From UHGV virus genome UHGV-0816550: a DNA stretch of 18,217 nt; one strand, written 5' to 3'. Position 1 is the first letter of the stretch, and each line of letters starts with the position of its first letter. This document shows, in pieces, positions 11,589 through 18,217 of the stretch. Both the position numbers and the translations under genes were made by a program. This stretch comes from a virus. The notes beneath the pieces were generated by a model. The model worked only from the letters and a program-made list of their open reading frames with translations. It was not told the origin of the DNA and did no database searches.

Positions 11589-12620
11589 ATGGCATATGGA
11601 ATATGGACACAACCAGTAGGGCCGGGGCCAGCAACCCCCGCTCCCTTATTTATTGATAGCGGAAGTACTTTCCCTCAGTTCAAGAATAGTATAAGAGGGA
11701 GTTTTAACTTTAATGGAGCTGGGAGATCTTTCCCTATTAGTGGATGGGATGGCAGTGGTCAGATAGTTATTGTTCCCACCGGTTCTTTATGCTGGCAATG
11801 GGAAGTCCCTCCTAACCTAGTTCCTGATGTTTATTGTGTGAATAATATCTACGTAGAAAACAGTTCCTCTTTTAGAGTTACTCTGAATCAGAACCCCGGC
11901 AGTAACCCCTTATTTGACTGTGGGTTCAACGTATATCAAATATGGCCTAGAGCGGATAGGAATTACGGAATTACCTTTTCTAATACAGCAGACTACTTCT
12001 CGATATCTGATAGTGGGGTCGTCGGTCAATGTATTTGGGCTTGGCAGGGGACCATAAACAATGCCCTTCAGATACCAAATATCGGTGGGTTCAATATGAC
12101 CAATGCTGTTGTGTTTGCTAATTGGTCTGATGGAGGGATAGGACTATCTTATACTTCTGATGACAGGGTTATTCGTGTTTATCAGAACAGACCTTACATA
12201 AACGGCAACACTAATGAGGGTGGTTCTGTGTTTGCTAGAATTGCAGTATTCTGCAATGGAGCAGGAGTTCCGGAACATAACGGAGGTTTGAATATTTACT
12301 CTCCGGGTACCACGCAATGTGTCTTCTCTACTAATAGAACACCTTTCACTGTGGATACTTTTATAGGCTCAGGAGGTGGTAACACTGGAATGTCATACCC
12401 TATGATACCTCTTACCTCTGGAATAGGTGCGATAAAAGGCCAAGGCAGTGGATGGAGGTATCAGCAAATGAGATCTCACACAATGAGTGGTTCTAGCATA
12501 GGAACTGGTTATGGAAGATATCTATTTCAATGGGATCAAAATTACGACCTAGGAGCTGATACTGTAGTTAATTTATCAGTTCCTGTAATAAATGCAGCTA
12601 AGGTTTTTGCTGGACTATAA
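11589..12620 (+). CDS. Hypothetical virion protein (343 aa), Gly/Asn/Trp-rich
   Basis: ATG 11589 lies 1 nt after the TAA of the previous gene (TAATATG), suggesting translational coupling. Long ORF with composition like neighbouring structural genes; no family motif recognised. Confidence 0.7.
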   Translation: MAYGIWTQPVGPGPATPAPLFIDSGSTFPQFKNSIRGSFNFNGAGRSFPISGWDGSGQIVIVPTGSLCWQWEVPPNLVPDVYCVNNIYVENSSSFRVTLNQNPGSNPLFDCGFNVYQIWPRADRNYGITFSNTADYFSISDSGVVGQCIWAWQGTINNALQIPNIGGFNMTNAVVFANWSDGGIGLSYTSDDRVIRVYQNRPYINGNTNEGGSVFARIAVFCNGAGVPEHNGGLNIYSPGTTQCVFSTNRTPFTVDTFIGSGGGNTGMSYPMIPLTSGIGAIKGQGSGWRYQQMRSHTMSGSSIGTGYGRYLFQWDQNYDLGADTVVNLSVPVINAAKVFAGL

Positions 12621-12632
12621 CAAGGAGATATT

Positions 12633-13415
12633 ATGGCAATTAAAATGGGTATTGAAGAACTAGACCCAATGGTTCAACAGGCTTCAAAGAAGTATGGGAT
12701 TCCTGCTGCTTTGATTCATGCTGTAATCCAAAGAGAGTCTAGTGGTCGTCCTACGGTAGCCTCTGGAACTGGTCCTGTAGGTTTAATGCAGATCAGTAAA
12801 GGGTTGGCTAAAGACTACGGTTACAAACTAGAAGACAGACTTGACCCAGCAAAGAATATTGATATGGGTGCTCGTTATATTAGAGATAACTTAAAGGCTT
12901 TTAATGGTGATGTTAAGAAAGCAATGGTTGGTTATTCAGAAGGTATAGGTGGAGCTAAGCAAATGTTTGCCGGTAAAAAGGGATTTACACCTCAAGCCCT
13001 TGACTCAATGAACAACAAACACTTTCTTCCTTTCTATGATGATGCAGCTTCTCAGATTGCTAACCCTATTGGAGCTTTGCAAGCTGTTCAACCAGTCAAT
13101 CAGTTTAGTCCGGATACTCTTGATAGGGAGAAGGCTGCTCAAGCCCCAACTCAGGCAGAAATTACTGCTTCTAAGACTGGTGCTTTAGGTGGCAATCCAG
13201 TAGAGTTTTACTCTGATGAAGTGCAGGAAGGAGAAAACCAGAAGCCTCAACAGAACTTTGGTAATGCAGTATTAGGGGTAGCTGCTATGCTTGCCGGTAA
13301 ACCTCCTACTTCTCAAACAGTTCAGAGGGCAAGTGCACCACATGCAGCAGGTTCTCAGTACAGTCCACAAACACAAGCAGTGCTCAGACGTTTAGCTAGC
13401 ATTGGTGTAAAGTAA
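12633..13415 (+). CDS. Virion-associated lytic transglycosylase (SLT-domain) protein, 260 aa
   Basis: ATG 12633 with AAGGAG at 12623-12627. N-terminal signature AVIQRESSGRPTVASGTGPVGLMQIS, with the candidate catalytic Glu35 at codon 12735-12737; placed beside putative ejection proteins, as with peptidoglycan-cutting internal virion proteins. Confidence 0.8.
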   Translation: MAIKMGIEELDPMVQQASKKYGIPAALIHAVIQRESSGRPTVASGTGPVGLMQISKGLAKDYGYKLEDRLDPAKNIDMGARYIRDNLKAFNGDVKKAMVGYSEGIGGAKQMFAGKKGFTPQALDSMNNKHFLPFYDDAASQIANPIGALQAVQPVNQFSPDTLDREKAAQAPTQAEITASKTGALGGNPVEFYSDEVQEGENQKPQQNFGNAVLGVAAMLAGKPPTSQTVQRASAPHAAGSQYSPQTQAVLRRLASIGVK

Positions 13416-13434
13416 TAATCTTTAAGGAGGACTT

Positions 13435-14487
13435 ATGTCTTTATTTGGAAAATCAGCTTCTAGCAAAACCACAGTGGCCCCTTCCTCTCAGGTTGATGCC
13501 CTGCTGAAGCAGATTGTTGCTAATGCTCAGAATATGCAGAACAACGATCCGGGATTCATCTCCCAACAGCTGGCTGGGTTTAATGGCAACCAACAAGGTG
13601 CTCTGAACAACTTAGCAGCTTCTACTACTCAGAAGCAATTGGCTGATATGTACACGCCTCGTACACAGCAAGGGTTGGACCAATTAAACTCTCTTGCACA
13701 GCAGTATCAGAATATTGTCAATGGTGGTGGTCTAACTGCTGATGGTGTTAATAACTTCAGTAAAGGATTGAATAACTCAGCTCTTGCTCAAGCGACTAGT
13801 AAGGCAGCTTCCAATGTATCCCTCGGAAATGGTTCTGACTCTGGTTCTCTTCGTAGGGCTGCGGCTCAAGGGGCTGCTTTGAACAGTGCTAATACAAACT
13901 TAGCCCGTACTATCAGTGGCAAGAATATGGGAATCAGTGCTCTCCAACAAGACCAAAACTTTCAGAGGGGTTTACTTGGTGCTCAGTCAGGATTGGCTGG
14001 ACAGAATCTCAACCTTGGTGCTCAAGGTGTTCAGGCAACTCAACAAGCTATCCAGAATCAACTCATGGCTGGTAATCTACAACAGCAACAAGCCCAAGCT
14101 CAAGCTGATATTAATTGGCAGAACGCTATTGGCTCTCAACAGTATGGGTGGAATCAGCTTAACAATCAGCTTAATGTATTAAACAGTGTAAGTCCAATGG
14201 CTGGGTACACGATTAAGAATGCTGCTCCGGGAGTCAATACTGGACAACAGCTCCTAGGTGCTGGTATCACTGGTTTAGGTATTGCAGGTCGTATGGGTGC
14301 TTTCTCTCCTAACCAACAGACTCAGAATGCTTGGAGTTCCTATAACAACTCAGGTGGGCAATCTGGAATGGCTGGACCTATGATTGGAGGTTCTAATCTT
14401 TCTCAACAGAGAGGTCAGTCTAACTGGTTATCCACAGCAGGTAGTAATATCTTAGGTGGTGTCTTAGGGGCATTTGGAGTAAACTAA
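13435..14487 (+). CDS. Q/N/G-rich low-complexity virion protein (350 aa) with C-terminal glycine-zipper segment; putative ejection/internal protein
   Basis: ATG 13435 with AAGGAGG at 13425-13431. Strongly biased composition (poly-Q, N, G, A, S) and a C-terminal small-residue hydrophobic segment (GSNILGGVLGAFGV). Confidence 0.75.
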   Translation: MSLFGKSASSKTTVAPSSQVDALLKQIVANAQNMQNNDPGFISQQLAGFNGNQQGALNNLAASTTQKQLADMYTPRTQQGLDQLNSLAQQYQNIVNGGGLTADGVNNFSKGLNNSALAQATSKAASNVSLGNGSDSGSLRRAAAQGAALNSANTNLARTISGKNMGISALQQDQNFQRGLLGAQSGLAGQNLNLGAQGVQATQQAIQNQLMAGNLQQQQAQAQADINWQNAIGSQQYGWNQLNNQLNVLNSVSPMAGYTIKNAAPGVNTGQQLLGAGITGLGIAGRMGAFSPNQQTQNAWSSYNNSGGQSGMAGPMIGGSNLSQQRGQSNWLSTAGSNILGGVLGAFGVN

Positions 14488-14499
14488 AGGAGATTTGAT

Positions 14500-15469
14500 A
14501 TGGGACTTTTCGGAGGAGGGGGTAGTAAAACTACTTCCCAAATGATTCGCCCTGAATATATTCAACAGTATATTGACCAGCTTAACCAGCAGATTGGTAA
14601 TACTAGTTCTAGGGGATTATGTCTATCGTGACAACGTAGGATTTAATAACAACCAGACAGAAGCCCTTAATAATTTGGCTCAATCCGGTGCTTTAGGGAC
14701 TCTCTCGCAGCAATATATGGATGCAGCAGGTCAAGGGTTGGGTTATCTGGATAATGCCTATAAAGGCTACCAGAGCCTCTCTGGACAAGGTGGGATTACT
14801 GGAGAACAGATTGGTGCTCTCGCTGGTCAACTGTATGACGATGATGCTGTGCAAGCAGCCATTACCGCTAATAATGAACAGGTTCAACAGAACTTGGCAC
14901 GTAATGCTCTTCCTCAATTAGCTCAACAGTTTGCTGGTCAGCAAGGTTCAGGTGCTCGTATGGCTAAATCTTTTGCCCAAGGTGATGCTCTGAATCAGAT
15001 GCAAGGCCAAGCAACAGATATTACCAACAGTGCCTATAACTCGGCTATTAGCCAAGCTGAAAGCATCCTCTCTGGTAATAGACAGAATCAAGCAGCTGCT
15101 CTCTCAGGTCTTTCTAATATTGGTTCTAACCTTTCTAACCTAGGTCAGCAGGGTGCTAATTTGTCTCAACAGCAAATAATGAATCAATGGAATGCAGGAT
15201 TGCAGCAACAACAGCAACAACAGAATGAATATGATAATGCCTACCAGAATGCTCAGAACGCAGCTAATTGGGGATGGCAAGATATCAATAACCAACTCGG
15301 TGCAGCAGGTGTACTTAACGGTGCTCTCGGACAAACTACAACTACTAAAACATCTGGAGGTAGGGGTGGCTTCTTAGGAGGGGGTATGAGTGGTGCAGCA
15401 GCAGGCTCTTCCTTTGGACCTTGGGGTGCATTAGCTGGGGGTGTAATCGGTGGGTTGGCTAGTACTTAA
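14500..15469 (+). CDS. Q/N/G-rich paralogue of the preceding protein, interrupted by an apparent +1 frame change near the G4 run at 14612-14615 (sequencing indel, pseudogene or recoding)
   Basis: ATG 14500 with AAGGAG at 14487-14492 opens a frame that stops at TGA 14629-14631 after 43 codons. The long downstream frame (open from 14546 to 15469) has no ATG start with a ribosome-binding site. Both parts align to the upstream paralogue (MSLFGKSASSKTT vs MGLFGGGGSKTT; GFNGNQQGALNNL vs GFNNNQTEALNNL) only if one base is removed. Confidence 0.6.
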
Positions 15470-15482
15470 TTAGGAGACAAAT

Positions 15483-16274
15483 ATGCAACAGACAACTTAC
15501 GCTCAGGTCAGAAGTCGTGACCCGAGAAATACTTTCTATGGTGTTAATCCGGGAGCGGCTTCGGCCTCTCCTTATATGGCTAGACCAACTCAGACAGCAG
15601 ATATTTCTATGTATCAACGTCCTGCTATACCTGCTGGGCTTTCCTCTCTTGTAGGTCAAACTTCAGTAGATTATCAGAATATGTTGAATCCTGTTCAGAG
15701 TAATGGTCTTCCTTCTGATATCCCAAATGATGTACAACCTCAAGCACAACAGGCTGTAACTCTTCCTGAGTTTGAGAATCAAGAAACCATGCAAGCTGCT
15801 GGACTTTCTCCTTCTTCTATTCCTCCAGAATCAGAACCTCTTCCGGTAACACCTCCTACTAAACCGTTAGAAGCTGGTCCTATGGAGTTTACTCCTTCTC
15901 AGGTGGAACAGGCACAAGGTGTGATTAATACTCTTGCTCAAGGACAAGACGCTGGTGATGGAATGACTGCTGCTACTCGTGCTAAAGATCAGGAACGTGT
16001 TAACAACGATATCTTGCAAGTTGCTAAAGCTAAAAATCCTTCAGAAGCTTGGAATAAACTACAGAAAGAACCTTTCTATCAGAACTCCAGTTTCTATACA
16101 GGTTTAATGGGTGTAGGTCTTTCTATCATGTCAGGTAAGTCTCCTATTGAAGCTTTCCAGATTGGTCAGGGAATGGCTAATCAAGATGAGACTAAGAAGC
16201 AACTGGAAGCTAACCGTGATGCTCTGATTGAACAAGGCTTCTCCCAAGACTCGATCGCAGCTGCTATTGCTTAA
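15483..16274 (+). CDS. Hypothetical virion/ejection-associated protein (263 aa) with Pro-rich linker and C-terminal hydrophobic segment
   Basis: ATG 15483 with AGGAG at 15473-15477. Pro/Ser-rich linker (SPSSIPPESEPLPVTPPTKPLEAGP) and hydrophobic FYTGLMGVGLSIMSG near the C-terminus; no family motif recognised. Confidence 0.65.
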   Translation: MQQTTYAQVRSRDPRNTFYGVNPGAASASPYMARPTQTADISMYQRPAIPAGLSSLVGQTSVDYQNMLNPVQSNGLPSDIPNDVQPQAQQAVTLPEFENQETMQAAGLSPSSIPPESEPLPVTPPTKPLEAGPMEFTPSQVEQAQGVINTLAQGQDAGDGMTAATRAKDQERVNNDILQVAKAKNPSEAWNKLQKEPFYQNSSFYTGLMGVGLSIMSGKSPIEAFQIGQGMANQDETKKQLEANRDALIEQGFSQDSIAAAIA

Positions 16275-17967
16275 CACGTTGAGAGCGAGCACGCTGAGAA
16301 GAGAAGCGATTCAGAGCATACTTAGCAGCACCGAGAGTGTTCATTACCAGACTAGGTGAAGAAGCCTCACGGAATCCATCATCAGTCAGGGAAGTCCAAC
16401 CACGATCTTGGTTACTCATAAACTTAGCCGTATTGTTCAGAGTGTAAGCATCTTGGATAGGATTAAAACCTTCAGGCATGCCTTTCAGTTTCTTCAACCC
16501 ACCGATAGCTTTCTTCATCTCTGGAGAAACGTTATCAGCCATCTTCTGTAGTTCAGCAGCTTTCTCTACGAAGTTGTTAAAGTCTTCACCATCACGAGCT
16601 TTGAATCGATTTGCTTCGTTATAGAAAGTCTTGTACGCATCAATGAAATCACGGTCAGCTTGTGTGCGATTCTTAATATCAATCGGACTGCCAGTAAAGT
16701 CACCAGAAGCTCGGAGAGAAACTAACTCACGATCAAGATTATCCAGAACATCTGTAAGAGCTTTAGTGTTATCCTTGGTGTAGTCAGCCATTGCATCTTT
16801 CATAGCGACAGCTTGCTTCTGGTTGTGCTCATTATCAGCGAAGGCTTTACCACGAGTCTTAGCCGGAGAAGCTAAAGGGTTAAGGCCCGGAATGTTGGAA
16901 TGTTCTTTCTGAACAGAAGCAGCTTTCTCAGCACGAGCTTGGTCAGTATTAAGAATACGCTGAGCAGCAGGAGAATCTACAGCAACAGCATCTGTGATAC
17001 GGAATCCGTTCTCGTCGAGAAGGTTCAGAGCAGAAGCAGCGTTAGCAGTTTCAGCTTTAGAGTAAGCCTCTTTCAGCTCATCAATATTCTTAGCACCACG
17101 AATCAGTTCATCATCAGCAGCAATATCAGTCTTCGCATATTCTGGAGTGTTCTTGAAGACAGCAGAATCCGGACGGCTAATCAAACCATGAACTCCACCA
17201 ACTGCACCACCAAATGCAGCACCCATAGCCCCTTCTTCAATAACCCCTTCCAATGTCTTAGCTAAATCATTGTCATCACCATACTTGTTCTGAACTTCAG
17301 CAGCACCAACAAGAGCACCACCTTTAGCACCAGCCACTGCGTTACTAGCAACGTTCTGACCAATACGACCAAGTGTGGACTCAGCTGTACCAACAGCACC
17401 CGGAAGGATTCTCTGAGCTGCATAGTTAGCACCACCAACTAAGGCTGCATCTAGAACAGACTTATCTTCTCCCTCTTCAGGGGTTTGGTCTGCATACGCA
17501 CGACCGGTCTCACGACCTGCGATGATAGCAGCGGCAGCTAATGGGTTAGCAACTGTCAGACCAATGTCGGCAACCACCCCAGCATACTGACCAGCAGACT
17601 TACCAATCCCATCCTCAATCTTATCCATACGTTCTTTCAAGAGGTTTTGAGCGTTCTCTTGCATACGCTTCCCGTAACCAGTTTGTGCTCCAGTTAGATC
17701 TTCACCAATCTCAACTAAGCCCCCAATACCTCTAGCAAGATTAGCAGAGATGTTAGCACTGCCGGACTGAAGAGCATTTGACACACCTTGAGCAAACTCA
17801 CCTATAGCACCACGTTCTTCTTGTTGTGGTTGTGCTACTGGCTGTTCCTCAGGAATAGAGCCACCTGCTGCCTTATATTGTTCTCTCATTCGAGCTTGTT
17901 GCTCCGGAGAGGCATTCAGATACGCAGGAGCTTTGGAAGCTTCTTCCCACGGTTTAATGTTAGCCAT
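16264..17967 (-). CDS. Hypothetical Gly/Ala-rich protein (567 aa), function unknown
   Basis: Minus-strand ATG at 17965-17967 preceded by AAGGAG; product begins MANIKPWEEAS. The ORF-track start at 18012 has no ribosome-binding site. Stop TAG at 16264-16266 overlaps the 3' end of the + strand gene ending at 16274. Confidence 0.75.
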   Translation of the reverse strand: MANIKPWEEASKAPAYLNASPEQQARMREQYKAAGGSIPEEQPVAQPQQEERGAIGEFAQGVSNALQSGSANISANLARGIGGLVEIGEDLTGAQTGYGKRMQENAQNLLKERMDKIEDGIGKSAGQYAGVVADIGLTVANPLAAAAIIAGRETGRAYADQTPEEGEDKSVLDAALVGGANYAAQRILPGAVGTAESTLGRIGQNVASNAVAGAKGGALVGAAEVQNKYGDDNDLAKTLEGVIEEGAMGAAFGGAVGGVHGLISRPDSAVFKNTPEYAKTDIAADDELIRGAKNIDELKEAYSKAETANAASALNLLDENGFRITDAVAVDSPAAQRILNTDQARAEKAASVQKEHSNIPGLNPLASPAKTRGKAFADNEHNQKQAVAMKDAMADYTKDNTKALTDVLDNLDRELVSLRASGDFTGSPIDIKNRTQADRDFIDAYKTFYNEANRFKARDGEDFNNFVEKAAELQKMADNVSPEMKKAIGGLKKLKGMPEGFNPIQDAYTLNNTAKFMSNQDRGWTSLTDDGFREASSPSLVMNTLGAAKYALNRFSSQRARSQRVKQ

Positions 17968-18035
17968 AACGTCTCCTTTTATAAATAAAAATGTCCTACC
18001 CCCTATATACATTATAGAAGGCAGGACTTAGGTCT

Positions 18036-18217
18036 TATTGAGTGAACCAGCTCGTATCTTCAACAGCTGATAGAGCACCATTAAGCTTAGGATTGGTTGC
18101 TGCACCACCAACCGCTTCTTCTGCTTGTTCAGAGAAAACACCTAGAGGGTCATAGAAACCACCAGAAGGGATTGCACGGTTAACCAATGCAGTAGCCCTC
18201 TTCTTGTCCATACCAGA
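18036..18217 (-). CDS. Small minus-strand ORF, possibly the C-terminus of a gene that starts beyond the window end
   Basis: Frame open from the window edge to TAA (complement of 18036-18038); internal ATG at 18209-18211 would give a 57-aa product MDKKRATALVNRAIPSGGFYDPLGVF...; codon usage like neighbours. Start not determinable. Confidence 0.35.

What the first reader, a model, noticed from the sequence alone, without database searches (positions are those of the whole stretch)
13435..15469. Tandem pair of Q/N-rich, glycine-zipper-ended proteins next to a lytic transglycosylase
Two adjacent paralogues share N-termini (MSLFG.. / MGLFG..), poly-Q/N low-complexity cores (for example LQQQQQQQNEYDNAYQNAQNAANWGWQ) and C-terminal small-residue hydrophobic segments (GALAGGVIGGLA; ILGGVLGAFGV). 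Their position after the transglycosylase gene suggests ejected internal proteins that could form a channel across the envelope. I do not recognise this composition from characterised ejection proteins, so this is the best candidate here for an undescribed functional module.
Basis: partly seen in the sequence, partly recalled or inferred. Interest (0 to 1): 0.7.

Follow-up and report, generated by a model that had tools for sequence, protein, structure and literature searches.

The report
Kuravirus ejection proteins gp21 and gp22
These two neighbouring genes are the already-published "ejection proteins" gp21 and gp22 of SU10/phiEco32-type E. coli phages, which sit inside the phage head and are expelled at infection to help build the DNA channel; the finding is correct in spirit but not a new module, and one copy is broken by a frameshift in this sequence.

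Summary
The window is the late structural region of a Kuravirus (phiEco32/SU10-like E. coli podophage). The two ORFs are true paralogues (31% identity, E=2e-12; both phrog_4287 "DNA ejection protein"). They are Q/N-rich (25-27% against 7-17% in neighbouring ORFs), poorly charged, and end in Gly/small-residue segments. They are 97-99% identical to SU10 gp21 and gp22. Published work found those proteins in virions by mass spectrometry and found them missing from genome-release intermediates. The "ejected internal protein" reading is therefore supported, but the "undescribed module" claim is not.

Added here:
- The family is homologous to LUZ24 gp53 / Pa223 gp56, the proposed outer-membrane channel subunit (hhalign 99.3%, E=9e-21).
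- It is probably, but not provably, related to P22 gp7.
- Elsewhere the domain is fused to peptidoglycan hydrolases or to an S74 chaperone domain.
- The two paralogues form a conserved basic/acidic pair.

There is no solved structure and no informative fold match.

Caveats: in this window gene 2 has a private 1-nt insertion (T14610), so its MGLFG N-terminus is out of frame with the rest. The downstream gp23/gp24 genes are cut by an inversion or misassembly at 16267-16275.

The parts
12633..13415 (+). gp20-like lytic transglycosylase (260 aa), first gene of the five-gene ejection cassette
   Evidence: Pfam SLT E=1.2e-23 and phrog_12507 E=8e-176. It is the SU10_020 orthologue by synteny. SU10 gp20 is reported as an ejection protein with transglycosylase activity.
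13424..13430 (+). Shine-Dalgarno AAGGAGG upstream of P1
   Evidence: Read directly from the sequence. Intergenic gaps of 12-19 nt, with no promoter or terminator signal above chance, indicate co-transcription.
13435..14487 (+). P1, the SU10 gp21 / phiEco32 gp23 orthologue: 350 aa, 35.9 kDa, pI 9.9, the basic paralogue
   Evidence: phrog_4287 E=1.8e-117. 96.9% aa identity to SU10 and 99.1% to phiEco32. MW and pI.
14251..14304 (+). P1 residues 273-290, LLGAGITGLGIAGRMGAF: the family-wide conserved Gly/small-residue hydrophobic segment
   Evidence: Nearly invariant G275, G277, L281, G282, G285, G288 and F290 in 23 sequences. Predicted helix 270-283. Aligned with the Gly-rich tails of LUZ24 gp53 and of the fused proteins.
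14437..14484 (+). P1 residues 335-350, AGSNILGGVLGAFGVN: a second C-terminal Gly-rich segment, conserved only in close relatives
14500..14631 (+). P2 N-terminal fragment as it reads in this window (MGLFGGGG..., 43 aa, ends at TGA). Codons 1-36 are those of SU10 gp22.
14610..14610 (+). Private single-base insertion (T) that frameshifts P2
   Evidence: Absent from Bas91 and EcK-vB. The best public matches, LAMP and EcoN5, are identical over 91 nt except for this base. It is not in a homopolymer run.
14612..15469 (+). Remainder of P2, the SU10 gp22 / phiEco32 gp24 orthologue. With the T removed it is 322 aa, 33.3 kDa, pI 4.3, the acidic paralogue.
   Evidence: phrog_4287 E=2.9e-109 for the repaired protein. 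97% identical to P0053, which stands for 219 member sequences of 322 aa. MW and pI.
15356..15466 (+). P2 residues 286-322, GGRGGFLGGGMSGAAAGSSFGPWGALAGGVIGGLAST: glycine-zipper tail
   Evidence: Seven overlapping GxxxGxxxG motifs. It resembles the C-terminus of P22 gp7.
15483..16274 (+). gp23-like ejection protein, only the first ~263 of 549 aa; cut off by the inversion junction
   Evidence: phrog_12130 positions 1-265 of 551. The forward match to Bas91 ends at 16275.
16267..16275 (.). Inversion or misassembly junction with a 9-nt overlap (TTGCTTAAC)
   Evidence: blastn against four relatives. No public phage record spans it.
16264..17967 (-). gp24-like large ejection protein, first ~567 of 1473 aa, in inverted orientation. 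The true start is the ATG at 17967.
   Evidence: phrog_14629 positions 1-567 of 1473. Minus-strand match to relatives.
18035..18217 (-). C-terminal fragment of the gp23-like gene, inverted; it runs off the end of the window

Best explanation
P1 and P2 are the Kuravirus ejection (internal virion) proteins gp21 and gp22. They are the second and third genes of a conserved five-gene cassette: SLT gp20, gp21, gp22, ~550-aa gp23, ~1470-aa gp24.

Shown in near-identical SU10: both proteins are packaged in the head with the DNA and leave the particle when the genome is released.

Inferred here:
- They fill the 'small, membrane-proximal subunit' slot of the podovirus DNA ejectosome. This is the T7 gp14 / P22 gp7 / Pa223 gp56 position, immediately upstream of the tunnel-sized and the giant subunit.
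- Residues ~10-260 form a helical bundle dominated by a ~120-residue helix.
- After expulsion through the portal and the opened nozzle, this part oligomerises into a hollow helical conduit that prolongs the nozzle.
- The Thr-rich linker and the C-terminal glycine-zipper segments pack into or against the outer membrane.
- gp20 then cuts the peptidoglycan, and gp23 and gp24 complete the path to the cytoplasm.
- The conserved basic (P1) and acidic (P2) pair suggests a hetero-oligomer or two stacked rings.

In this particular sequence P2 is frameshifted and gp23/gp24 are disrupted. The cassette as written would therefore not be functional unless these defects are sequencing or assembly errors.
For: - Identity and synteny with SU10 gp21/gp22 and phiEco32 gp23/gp24.
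- Presence in virions and loss on genome release in SU10 (PMC4281155; PMC9509320).
- The cassette SLT / P1-like / P2-like / ~490-563 aa / ~1108-1422 aa is conserved in relatives at only 40-50% identity (L005, L006).
- Profile-profile homology of the family (A3, 51 sequences) to the LUZ24 gp53 / Pa223 gp56 family: probability 99.3%, E=9e-21, 269 columns. This is supported by LUZ24 gp53 hitting phrog_4287 at E=2e-10.
- Pa223 gp56 is a virion protein proposed as the outer-membrane channel (bioRxiv 10.1101/2025.06.11.659172).
- Operon logic of small OM subunit, then tunnel, then large IM subunit (PMC8954989).
- Same-polypeptide fusions of this domain to SLT or Hydrolase_2 cell-wall hydrolases in other phages.
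- AF2 model with the 51-sequence alignment: pLDDT 69.6, helices 18-256 including 137-256, Gly-rich helix 270-283, disordered tail.
- Conserved opposite net charge: P1 family median +6 (94% positive, n=52); P2 family median -7 (100% negative, n=46).
- Composition and tail resemble P22 gp7. Collinear sub-threshold profile matches beat all controls.
Against: - No localisation, stoichiometry or pore activity has been measured for any member. SU10 cryo-EM shows no density for these proteins.
- The hydrophobic segments are weak: P2 has none at KD15 >= 1.2. No Pfam Gly-zipper model is matched.
- There is no detectable homology to T7 gp14 (hhalign 0.1%).
- The OM-channel role of Pa223 gp56 is itself a prediction.
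- At 322-350 aa the proteins are much larger than gp14-like proteins (181-240 aa).
- S74 chaperone domains on some homologues hint at trimeric, fibre-like assembly rather than a 6-9-mer ring.
Confidence: 0.6

Rival explanations
1. The proteins are ejection proteins, but they do not form the outer-membrane pore. Instead they build part of the periplasmic tunnel, an adaptor between the nozzle and gp23, or an internal plug or portal-associated core that retains DNA and primes ejection.
For: - The long ~120-residue predicted helix (~18 nm if straight) fits a tunnel wall.
- The hydrophobic segments are weak.
- Having two paralogues in addition to gp23 and gp24 gives more parts than the three-protein T7/P22 scheme.
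- SU10 authors only state that ejection proteins form a 'putative extension' of the nozzle.
Against: - Gene position and homology to Pa223 gp56 / LUZ24 gp53, which sits in the gp14 slot.
- The conserved Gly-zipper tail is shared with P22 gp7, which is classed as OM subunit.
- gp23 (549 aa) already has the size of a tunnel subunit.
Confidence: 0.22
2. The proteins form a trimeric coiled-coil fibre or needle-like rod that is expelled ahead of the DNA and pierces or braces the envelope. They do not form a hollow ring.
For: - Homologues in 7-11, GAP52 and Privateer-type phages and in P0149 carry a C-terminal Peptidase_S74 intramolecular chaperone domain directly after the Gly-rich segment. P0127 scores 26.2 bits and P0149 37.9 bits, both above the 22-bit cut-off; four others are sub-threshold at the same position. 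From general knowledge, this domain assists folding of trimeric fibres.
- Fold searches return mainly coiled coils.
Against: - Kuravirus P1 and P2 lack the S74 domain.
- A trimeric tail needle (gp18) already exists in SU10.
- Pa223 gp56 is predicted to form a hollow channel only as a nonamer. Hexamers and nonamers are also multiples of three.
Confidence: 0.1
3. In the genome this window comes from, the module is defective. P2 is a pseudogene, and gp23 and gp24 are split by a real inversion, as in a non-viable variant or a decaying element.
For: - The private T insertion at 14610 is not in a homopolymer run.
- The inversion junction has 9-nt microhomology and is spanned by no public record.
- All three defects fall within the ejection cassette.
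Against: - All other ORFs in the window are intact and of the expected length.
- P0053-like intact 322-aa proteins represent hundreds of sequences.
- A phage lacking gp22-24 is unlikely to propagate. Chimeric junctions at short inverted repeats are typical assembly artefacts.
Confidence: 0.3
4. The similarity between the two ORFs is only shared low-complexity composition. On this view they are not true paralogues and have no specific function.
For: Strong compositional bias: Q, N, G, A, L and S make up ~70% of residues.
Against: - The BLASTP E-value of 2e-12 is composition-adjusted.
- Both ORFs give full-length matches to one PHROG.
- Collinear conserved motifs are seen across 51 sequences.
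- The AF2 core is confidently predicted.
- Reversed and column-shuffled profile controls score far lower.
Confidence: 0.01

Closest known systems
Escherichia phage SU10 gp21 and gp22 (= phiEco32 gp23 and gp24), Kuravirus ejection proteins, phrog_4287
   Same: Orthologues. They have the same gene order after the SLT gene and the same lengths (350 and 322 aa). P1 is 96.9-99.1% identical to them, and repaired P2 is 97% identical to the commonest 322-aa cluster representative, P0053. Calculated masses are the same (35.9 and 33.3 kDa). The SU10 proteins were shown to be in virions and to be lost on genome release.
   Different: In this window the gp22 orthologue carries a 1-nt insertion, and the downstream gp23/gp24 genes are rearranged.
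Pseudomonas phage Pa223 gp56 / LUZ24 gp53 (phrog_7477), proposed outer-membrane channel of the Bruynoghevirus ejectosome
   Same: Homologous over nearly the full length (hhalign 99.3%, E=9e-21). Similar size (313 aa). Both are virion proteins encoded upstream of a ~505-aa and a ~1055-aa ejection protein. Both have a Gly-rich C-terminal tail and the shared G-x-x-G-S-S-R-x-G-V-A-E and Q-rich W/Y-containing motifs.
   Different: Only ~16% identity. It is a single copy rather than a basic/acidic pair. It has no adjacent SLT gene. It is less Q/N-rich (16%) and has an extra ~20-residue N-terminal extension. Its OM-channel role is itself only predicted.
Salmonella phage P22 gp7 (Pfam PF25688 P22_gp7), classed as the gp14-like OM subunit
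   Same: A small ejection protein encoded immediately before the tunnel-sized and large subunits. It is Q/N-rich (17.9%), Gly-rich (14.4%) and poorly charged (10.5%), and ends in a double glycine zipper very like the P2 tail. Collinear weak profile matches: local 20-42%, global 82.5% with E=1.1e-6; all controls <=1.4%.
   Different: It is shorter (229 aa). P1 and P2 give no Pfam P22_gp7 hit, and local hhalign probabilities are below any accepted threshold. The N-terminus of P22 gp7 is cleaved by host OpdA (record note), and nothing equivalent is known here.
Phage T7 gp14 (internal virion protein B, outer-membrane pore of the T7 ejectosome)
   Same: The analogous position in the operon and the proposed role. 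It is the first small ejection protein, water-insoluble and pore-forming, and it extends the nozzle through the OM (PMC8954989).
   Different: No detectable sequence or profile similarity (hhalign 0.1%). T7 gp14 is 196 aa with 4-5 predicted TM helices, is not Q/N-rich and has no Gly-zipper tail. In T7 the SLT domain is part of gp16, whereas here it is a separate gene upstream.

Membership tests
Kuravirus ejection proteins gp21/gp22 (phrog_4287 'DNA ejection protein') | Full-length sequence match to the family profile | tested here: met
   E=1.8e-117 for P1 (residues 1-349). E=2.9e-109 for repaired P2 (residues 1-310).
Kuravirus ejection proteins gp21/gp22 (phrog_4287 'DNA ejection protein') | Position in the cassette SLT / gp21 / gp22 / gp23 / gp24, downstream of the tail needle and DUF6453 genes | tested here: met
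   Gene order is identical to Bas91, SU10 and phiEco32 up to the first 263 codons of gp23. It is also conserved in the distant loci L005 and L006.
Kuravirus ejection proteins gp21/gp22 (phrog_4287 'DNA ejection protein') | Present in purified virions and released with the genome | not testable with these tools
   Published for SU10 orthologues at ~97% identity. Not measured for this genome.
Kuravirus ejection proteins gp21/gp22 (phrog_4287 'DNA ejection protein') | Intact open reading frame | tested here: not met
   P1 is intact. P2 is interrupted by the extra T at 14610, which gives a stop at 14629-14631.
Bruynoghevirus gp56 (Pa223) / gp53 (LUZ24) putative OM-channel family (phrog_7477) | Homology by profile-profile comparison | tested here: met
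   A3 against A4: probability 99.3%, E=9e-21, 269 columns. A3 against single LUZ24 gp53: 97.4%, E=1.3e-11. These are superfamily-level relatives, not members of the same PHROG.
Bruynoghevirus gp56 (Pa223) / gp53 (LUZ24) putative OM-channel family (phrog_7477) | Encoded next to a ~500-aa and a ~1000+-aa virion protein (tunnel and inner-membrane subunits) | tested here: met
   LUZ24 has gp53, gp52, gp51 (505 aa) and gp50 (1055 aa). Kuravirus has gp21/22, gp23 (549 aa) and gp24 (1473 aa).
T7 gp14-like outer-membrane ejection proteins (class as defined in PMC8954989) | Sequence or profile similarity to T7 gp14 | tested here: not met
   hhalign probability 0.1%. No PDB sequence or profile hit to any ejectosome chain.
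T7 gp14-like outer-membrane ejection proteins (class as defined in PMC8954989) | Size of about 180-240 aa with four to five predicted transmembrane helices | tested here: not met
   The proteins are 350 and 322 aa. P1 has only two weakly hydrophobic 15-residue windows and P2 has none at KD>=1.2. No dedicated TM predictor was available.
T7 gp14-like outer-membrane ejection proteins (class as defined in PMC8954989) | Gene immediately upstream of the gp15-like and gp16-like genes | tested here: met
T7 gp14-like outer-membrane ejection proteins (class as defined in PMC8954989) | Outer-membrane localisation after infection and pore activity in bilayers | not testable with these tools
   No experimental data for any phrog_4287 member were found in the library.
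P22 gp7 family (Pfam PF25688) | Match to the Pfam model or significant profile-profile similarity | tested here: inconclusive
   No Pfam hit at E<=1. hhalign against a 17-sequence gp7 profile gives local 20-42% (E 2.6e-4 to 1.1e-3) in three collinear segments, and global 82.5% with E=1.1e-6. The reversed control scores 1.4% and 20 column shuffles score <=0.2%.
P22 gp7 family (Pfam PF25688) | Q/N- and Gly-rich, low-charge composition with a C-terminal double glycine zipper | tested here: met
   The tail alignment G..G.A......PWGA.IGG is.
Glycine-zipper membrane segments (GxxxGxxxG; Pfam Gly-zipper families) | Repeated GxxxG periodicity in a hydrophobic helix | tested here: inconclusive
   P2 has seven overlapping GxxxGxxxG motifs at 286-317. 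P1 has only a small-xxx-small ladder. Neither protein hits a Pfam Gly-zipper model. The relative P0122 and P22 gp7 give sub-threshold hits to Gly-zipper_YMGG.
Peptidase_S74 (intramolecular chaperone) bearing homologues | C-terminal S74 auto-processing domain | tested here: not met
   Absent from P1 and P2. Present in P0127 and P0149 above the Pfam cut-off, and sub-threshold in P0118, P0120, P0122 and P0125.

The most novel reading that the evidence does not exclude
phrog_4287 (Kuravirus gp21/gp22 and the 7-11/GAP52/Privateer 'injection proteins'), phrog_7477 (LUZ24 gp53 / Pa223 gp56) and P22 gp7 form one ancient superfamily. It would be the membrane-proximal ejectosome subunit of all non-T7 'ejectosomal' podoviruses. 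Its parts would be a helical core, a Thr-rich linker and a glycine-zipper tail. In kuraviruses the gene has duplicated into an obligatory basic/acidic hetero-oligomer. In other lineages the same module is fused to the cell-wall hydrolase or to an S74 chaperone. The long helices of the duplicated pair would account for the unusually long post-adsorption tail extension of kuraviruses.
Probability: 0.35. Interest if true: 0.5.

Novelty: already known. Interest (0 to 1): 0.3.

Why it matters
Ejection proteins are the least understood parts of short-tailed phages, and kuraviruses are used as therapeutic and model coliphages. This analysis links gp21/gp22 to Pa223 gp56 and probably to P22 gp7. That link lets results from those better-studied systems be transferred, and it points to a testable hetero-oligomeric (basic plus acidic) channel subunit. 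The finding does not reveal a new kind of module. The role of these two genes as ejected virion proteins is already in the literature and in the annotation databases.

Tried and rejected
- PDB sequence searches with each protein and with the family profile gave nothing relevant.
- The AF2 monomer built with the shallow 23-sequence alignment had pLDDT 40.6 and was unusable.
- hhalign against single T7 gp13, gp14 and gp15, P22 gp20 and gp16, LUZ24 gp51 and gp52, and the gp23-like protein was negative in every case.
- A programmed +1 frameshift at 14610 was rejected. The extra base is absent from all relatives, so the site is not conserved, and UCU-AGG offers no cognate re-pairing.
- A 'Rosetta-stone' link between gp23 and the long fused proteins was not established. 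Only a 34-residue motif is shared (hhalign 35%, E=4e-4; BLASTP E=0.005).
- phmmer of gp20, gp23 and gp24 against the long proteins returned nothing because of its bias filter.
- The phiEco32 proteomics paper (PMC2587145) is not held in the library, and the SU10 supplements hold no gp21/gp22 text.
- The promoter and terminator scan showed nothing above chance inside the cassette.
Full report
**Where the window comes from.** Megablast of 12600-16300 finds 90 phage records, almost all Escherichia or Shigella phages of the phiEco32/SU10 type (Kuravirus). Top identities are 96-97%. Annotated relatives (Bas91, EcK-vB, SU10, phiEco32) show this gene order: endolysin, short tail fibre, nozzle, tail needle, a DUF6453 protein, SLT transglycosylase, two "DNA ejection proteins", a ~550-aa protein and a 1473-aa protein. 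The window reproduces this order from 6241 onward.

**Checking the observation.**
- P1 (13435-14487, 350 aa) and P2 (14500-15469) follow the SLT gene (12633-13415; Pfam SLT E=1.2e-23) with 12-19 nt spacers and strong Shine-Dalgarno sites.
- They are true paralogues. BLASTP gives 31% identity with E=2e-12 under compositional adjustment. Both match phrog_4287 end to end.
- Q+N is 26.6% and 25.2%, against 6.8-16.7% for the other long ORFs. Charged residues are only 6.6% and 8.7%.
- The quoted C-terminal strings exist. P2 286-317 holds seven overlapping GxxxGxxxG motifs, and P1 has a small-xxx-small ladder at 273-290 plus the terminal ILGGVLGAFGV.

Three corrections are needed.
1. P2 is not a single ORF here. 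An extra T at 14610 separates MGLFGGGG... (14500-14631) from the rest. No phage record among 50,697 has this base; LAMP and EcoN5 are identical over 91 nt apart from it.
2. The Q-rich stretches sit in a conserved, confidently predicted helical core.
3. The segments are only weakly hydrophobic and hit no Pfam glycine-zipper model.

**What it is.**
- P1 is 96.9% identical to SU10_021 and 99.1% identical to phiEco32 gp23. P2 corresponds to SU10_022 / phiEco32 gp24, which are 969 nt.
- The calculated masses (35.9 and 33.3 kDa) equal those tabulated for SU10 gp21 and gp22.
- The SU10 proteome paper detected gp21 (53% coverage, 11 peptides) and gp22 (49%, 5 peptides) in virions (PMC4281155).
[quoted passage not shown] It concludes that they are ejection proteins, that gp20 is the transglycosylase, and that together they probably extend the nozzle across the periplasm. 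No density could be assigned to them (PMC9509320). The YF01 paper repeats this assignment.

**Wider family.**
- Word-indexed searches found only P1-like and P2-like orthologues down to ~35-40% identity, with no Pfam domains.
- Both copies and the whole five-gene cassette are conserved in distant relatives that carry SU10-type capsid and portal genes (L005, L006).
- An exhaustive profile search found 378 proteins at E<=1e-3. Many are 850-1640-aa proteins whose first ~300 residues align with the whole profile.
- These hit phrog_4287 at E=1e-17 to 1e-47. Some also carry SLT (P0150; also P0190 and P0230 by BLASTP to the window's gp20), and P0149 carries Hydrolase_2 plus Peptidase_S74.
- P0149 lies in a podovirus tail module with two SU10-type adaptor genes.
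- The ~400-425-aa homologues of 7-11, GAP52, Privateer and Aeromonas phages are single-copy. They end in an S74 intramolecular-chaperone domain directly after the Gly-rich segment.

**Link to characterised systems.**
- LUZ24 gp53 is the equivalent of Pa223 gp56. Pa223 gp56 was found in virions by LC-MS and is proposed as the gp14-like outer-membrane channel, about twice the usual size.
- LUZ24 gp53 hits phrog_4287 at E=2e-10.
- A 51-sequence family profile aligns with a 32-sequence LUZ24 gp53 profile at 99.3% probability, E=9e-21, over 269 columns.
- T7 gp13, gp14 and gp15, and P22 gp20 and gp16, show nothing.
- P22 gp7 shares composition and a strikingly similar double Gly-zipper tail. Against a more diverse gp7 profile, three collinear local matches reach 20-42% probability. 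The global alignment reaches 82.5% (E=1.1e-6). A reversed profile scores 1.4% and 20 column shuffles score <=0.2%. This is suggestive of remote homology but does not prove it.

**Structure.**
- With the deeper alignment, AF2 gives pLDDT 69.6. It predicts a short N-terminal strand (11-13) pairing with 259-261, helices 18-126, one very long helix 137-256, a Gly-rich helix 270-283 and a disordered tail.
- The PDB and BFVD fold searches gave only generic coiled-coil or uncharacterised matches.

**Mechanism proposed.**
- Shown elsewhere: the proteins are packaged in the head and released with the DNA.
- Inferred: they occupy the membrane-proximal slot of the ejectosome. This rests on operon logic (PMC8954989), homology to Pa223 gp56 and likeness to P22 gp7.
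- The helical core would oligomerise into a conduit that prolongs the nozzle, and the Gly-zipper tails would engage the outer membrane.
- P1-type proteins are almost always net positive (median +6) and P2-type proteins always net negative (median -7). I read this as evidence for a heteromeric partnership.
- Fusion of the same domain to cell-wall hydrolases elsewhere ties it functionally to the neighbouring SLT protein.
- The main rivals are a role in the tunnel, an adaptor or a plug, and a trimeric rod, which the S74 domains suggest.

**State of this particular sequence.**
- Besides the P2 frameshift, the forward match to relatives ends at 16275. Positions 16267-18217 are the reverse complement of the gp23-3'/gp24-5' region, with a 9-nt overlap at the junction. 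No public record spans that junction.
- Either the record has a sequencing error plus a chimeric assembly, or the genome is defective. This cannot be decided from the sequence alone.

**Verdict.** The module is already known. Interest is modest (0.3), and it rests on the superfamily links and the conserved charge-complementary pair rather than on novelty of kind.

Noticed in passing
window 14610: A private 1-nt insertion (T, not in a homopolymer run) frameshifts the gp22-like gene. No phage record among 50,697 carries it.
   Followed up: yes
window 16267-18217 (junction 16267-16275): This segment is the reverse complement of the gp23-3'/gp24-5' region of relatives and is joined through a 9-nt overlap (TTGCTTAAC). 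It truncates gp23 at ~aa 263 and gp24 at ~aa 567. No public phage record spans the junction. It is either an inversion or a chimeric assembly.
   Followed up: partly
P1 (13435-14487) and P2 (14500-15469), with orthologues P0001-P0098: There is a conserved charge split between the paralogues. The P1 family has median net charge +6 (94% positive, n=52). The P2 family has median -7 (100% negative, n=46). In this window the pI values are 9.9 and 4.3.
   Followed up: partly
P0149, P0150, P0145 and ~70 other proteins; locus L007 9834-13295: The gp21/gp22-type domain forms the N-terminal ~300 aa of 850-1640-aa metagenomic phage proteins. Some of these also contain SLT, or Hydrolase_2 plus Peptidase_S74 domains.
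   Followed up: partly
L091 7836-9074 (phage 7-11 gp020); P0118, P0120, P0122, P0125, P0127: Single-copy homologues in 7-11, GAP52, Privateer and Aeromonas phages end in an S74 intramolecular-chaperone (auto-cleaving) domain directly after the Gly-rich segment. This hints at assembly based on trimers.
   Followed up: partly
window 15483-16274, ORF residues ~201-234; 21 of 72 long proteins: A 34-residue motif (G-L-x-x-M-x-G-x-S-P-x5-I-G-x-G) is shared between the gp23-like protein and the long fused proteins (hhalign 35%, E=4e-4). A similar LGVAAMLAGKPP lies in the C-terminal part of the SLT protein (residues 208-223).
   Followed up: partly
window 18027-17993, minus strand: A strong terminator-like hairpin (15-bp stem followed by a T-run) lies in what is, in the normal orientation, the 67-nt spacer between gp23 and gp24.
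   Followed up: no
P0091, P0095; locus L005: gp22-like proteins are named from Enterobacter mori and E. cloacae genome assemblies (contigs up to 317 kb), and a 59.9-kb contig carries the whole SU10-like structural module. This could be a kuravirus-like phage carried in, or contaminating, bacterial assemblies.
   Followed up: no
window 11589-12620: The DUF6453 protein (gp19-like, annotated 'membrane protein') lies just upstream of the cassette. It is Gly-rich and poorly charged (9.9%). It is not listed among SU10 virion proteins, and its role is unknown.
   Followed up: no
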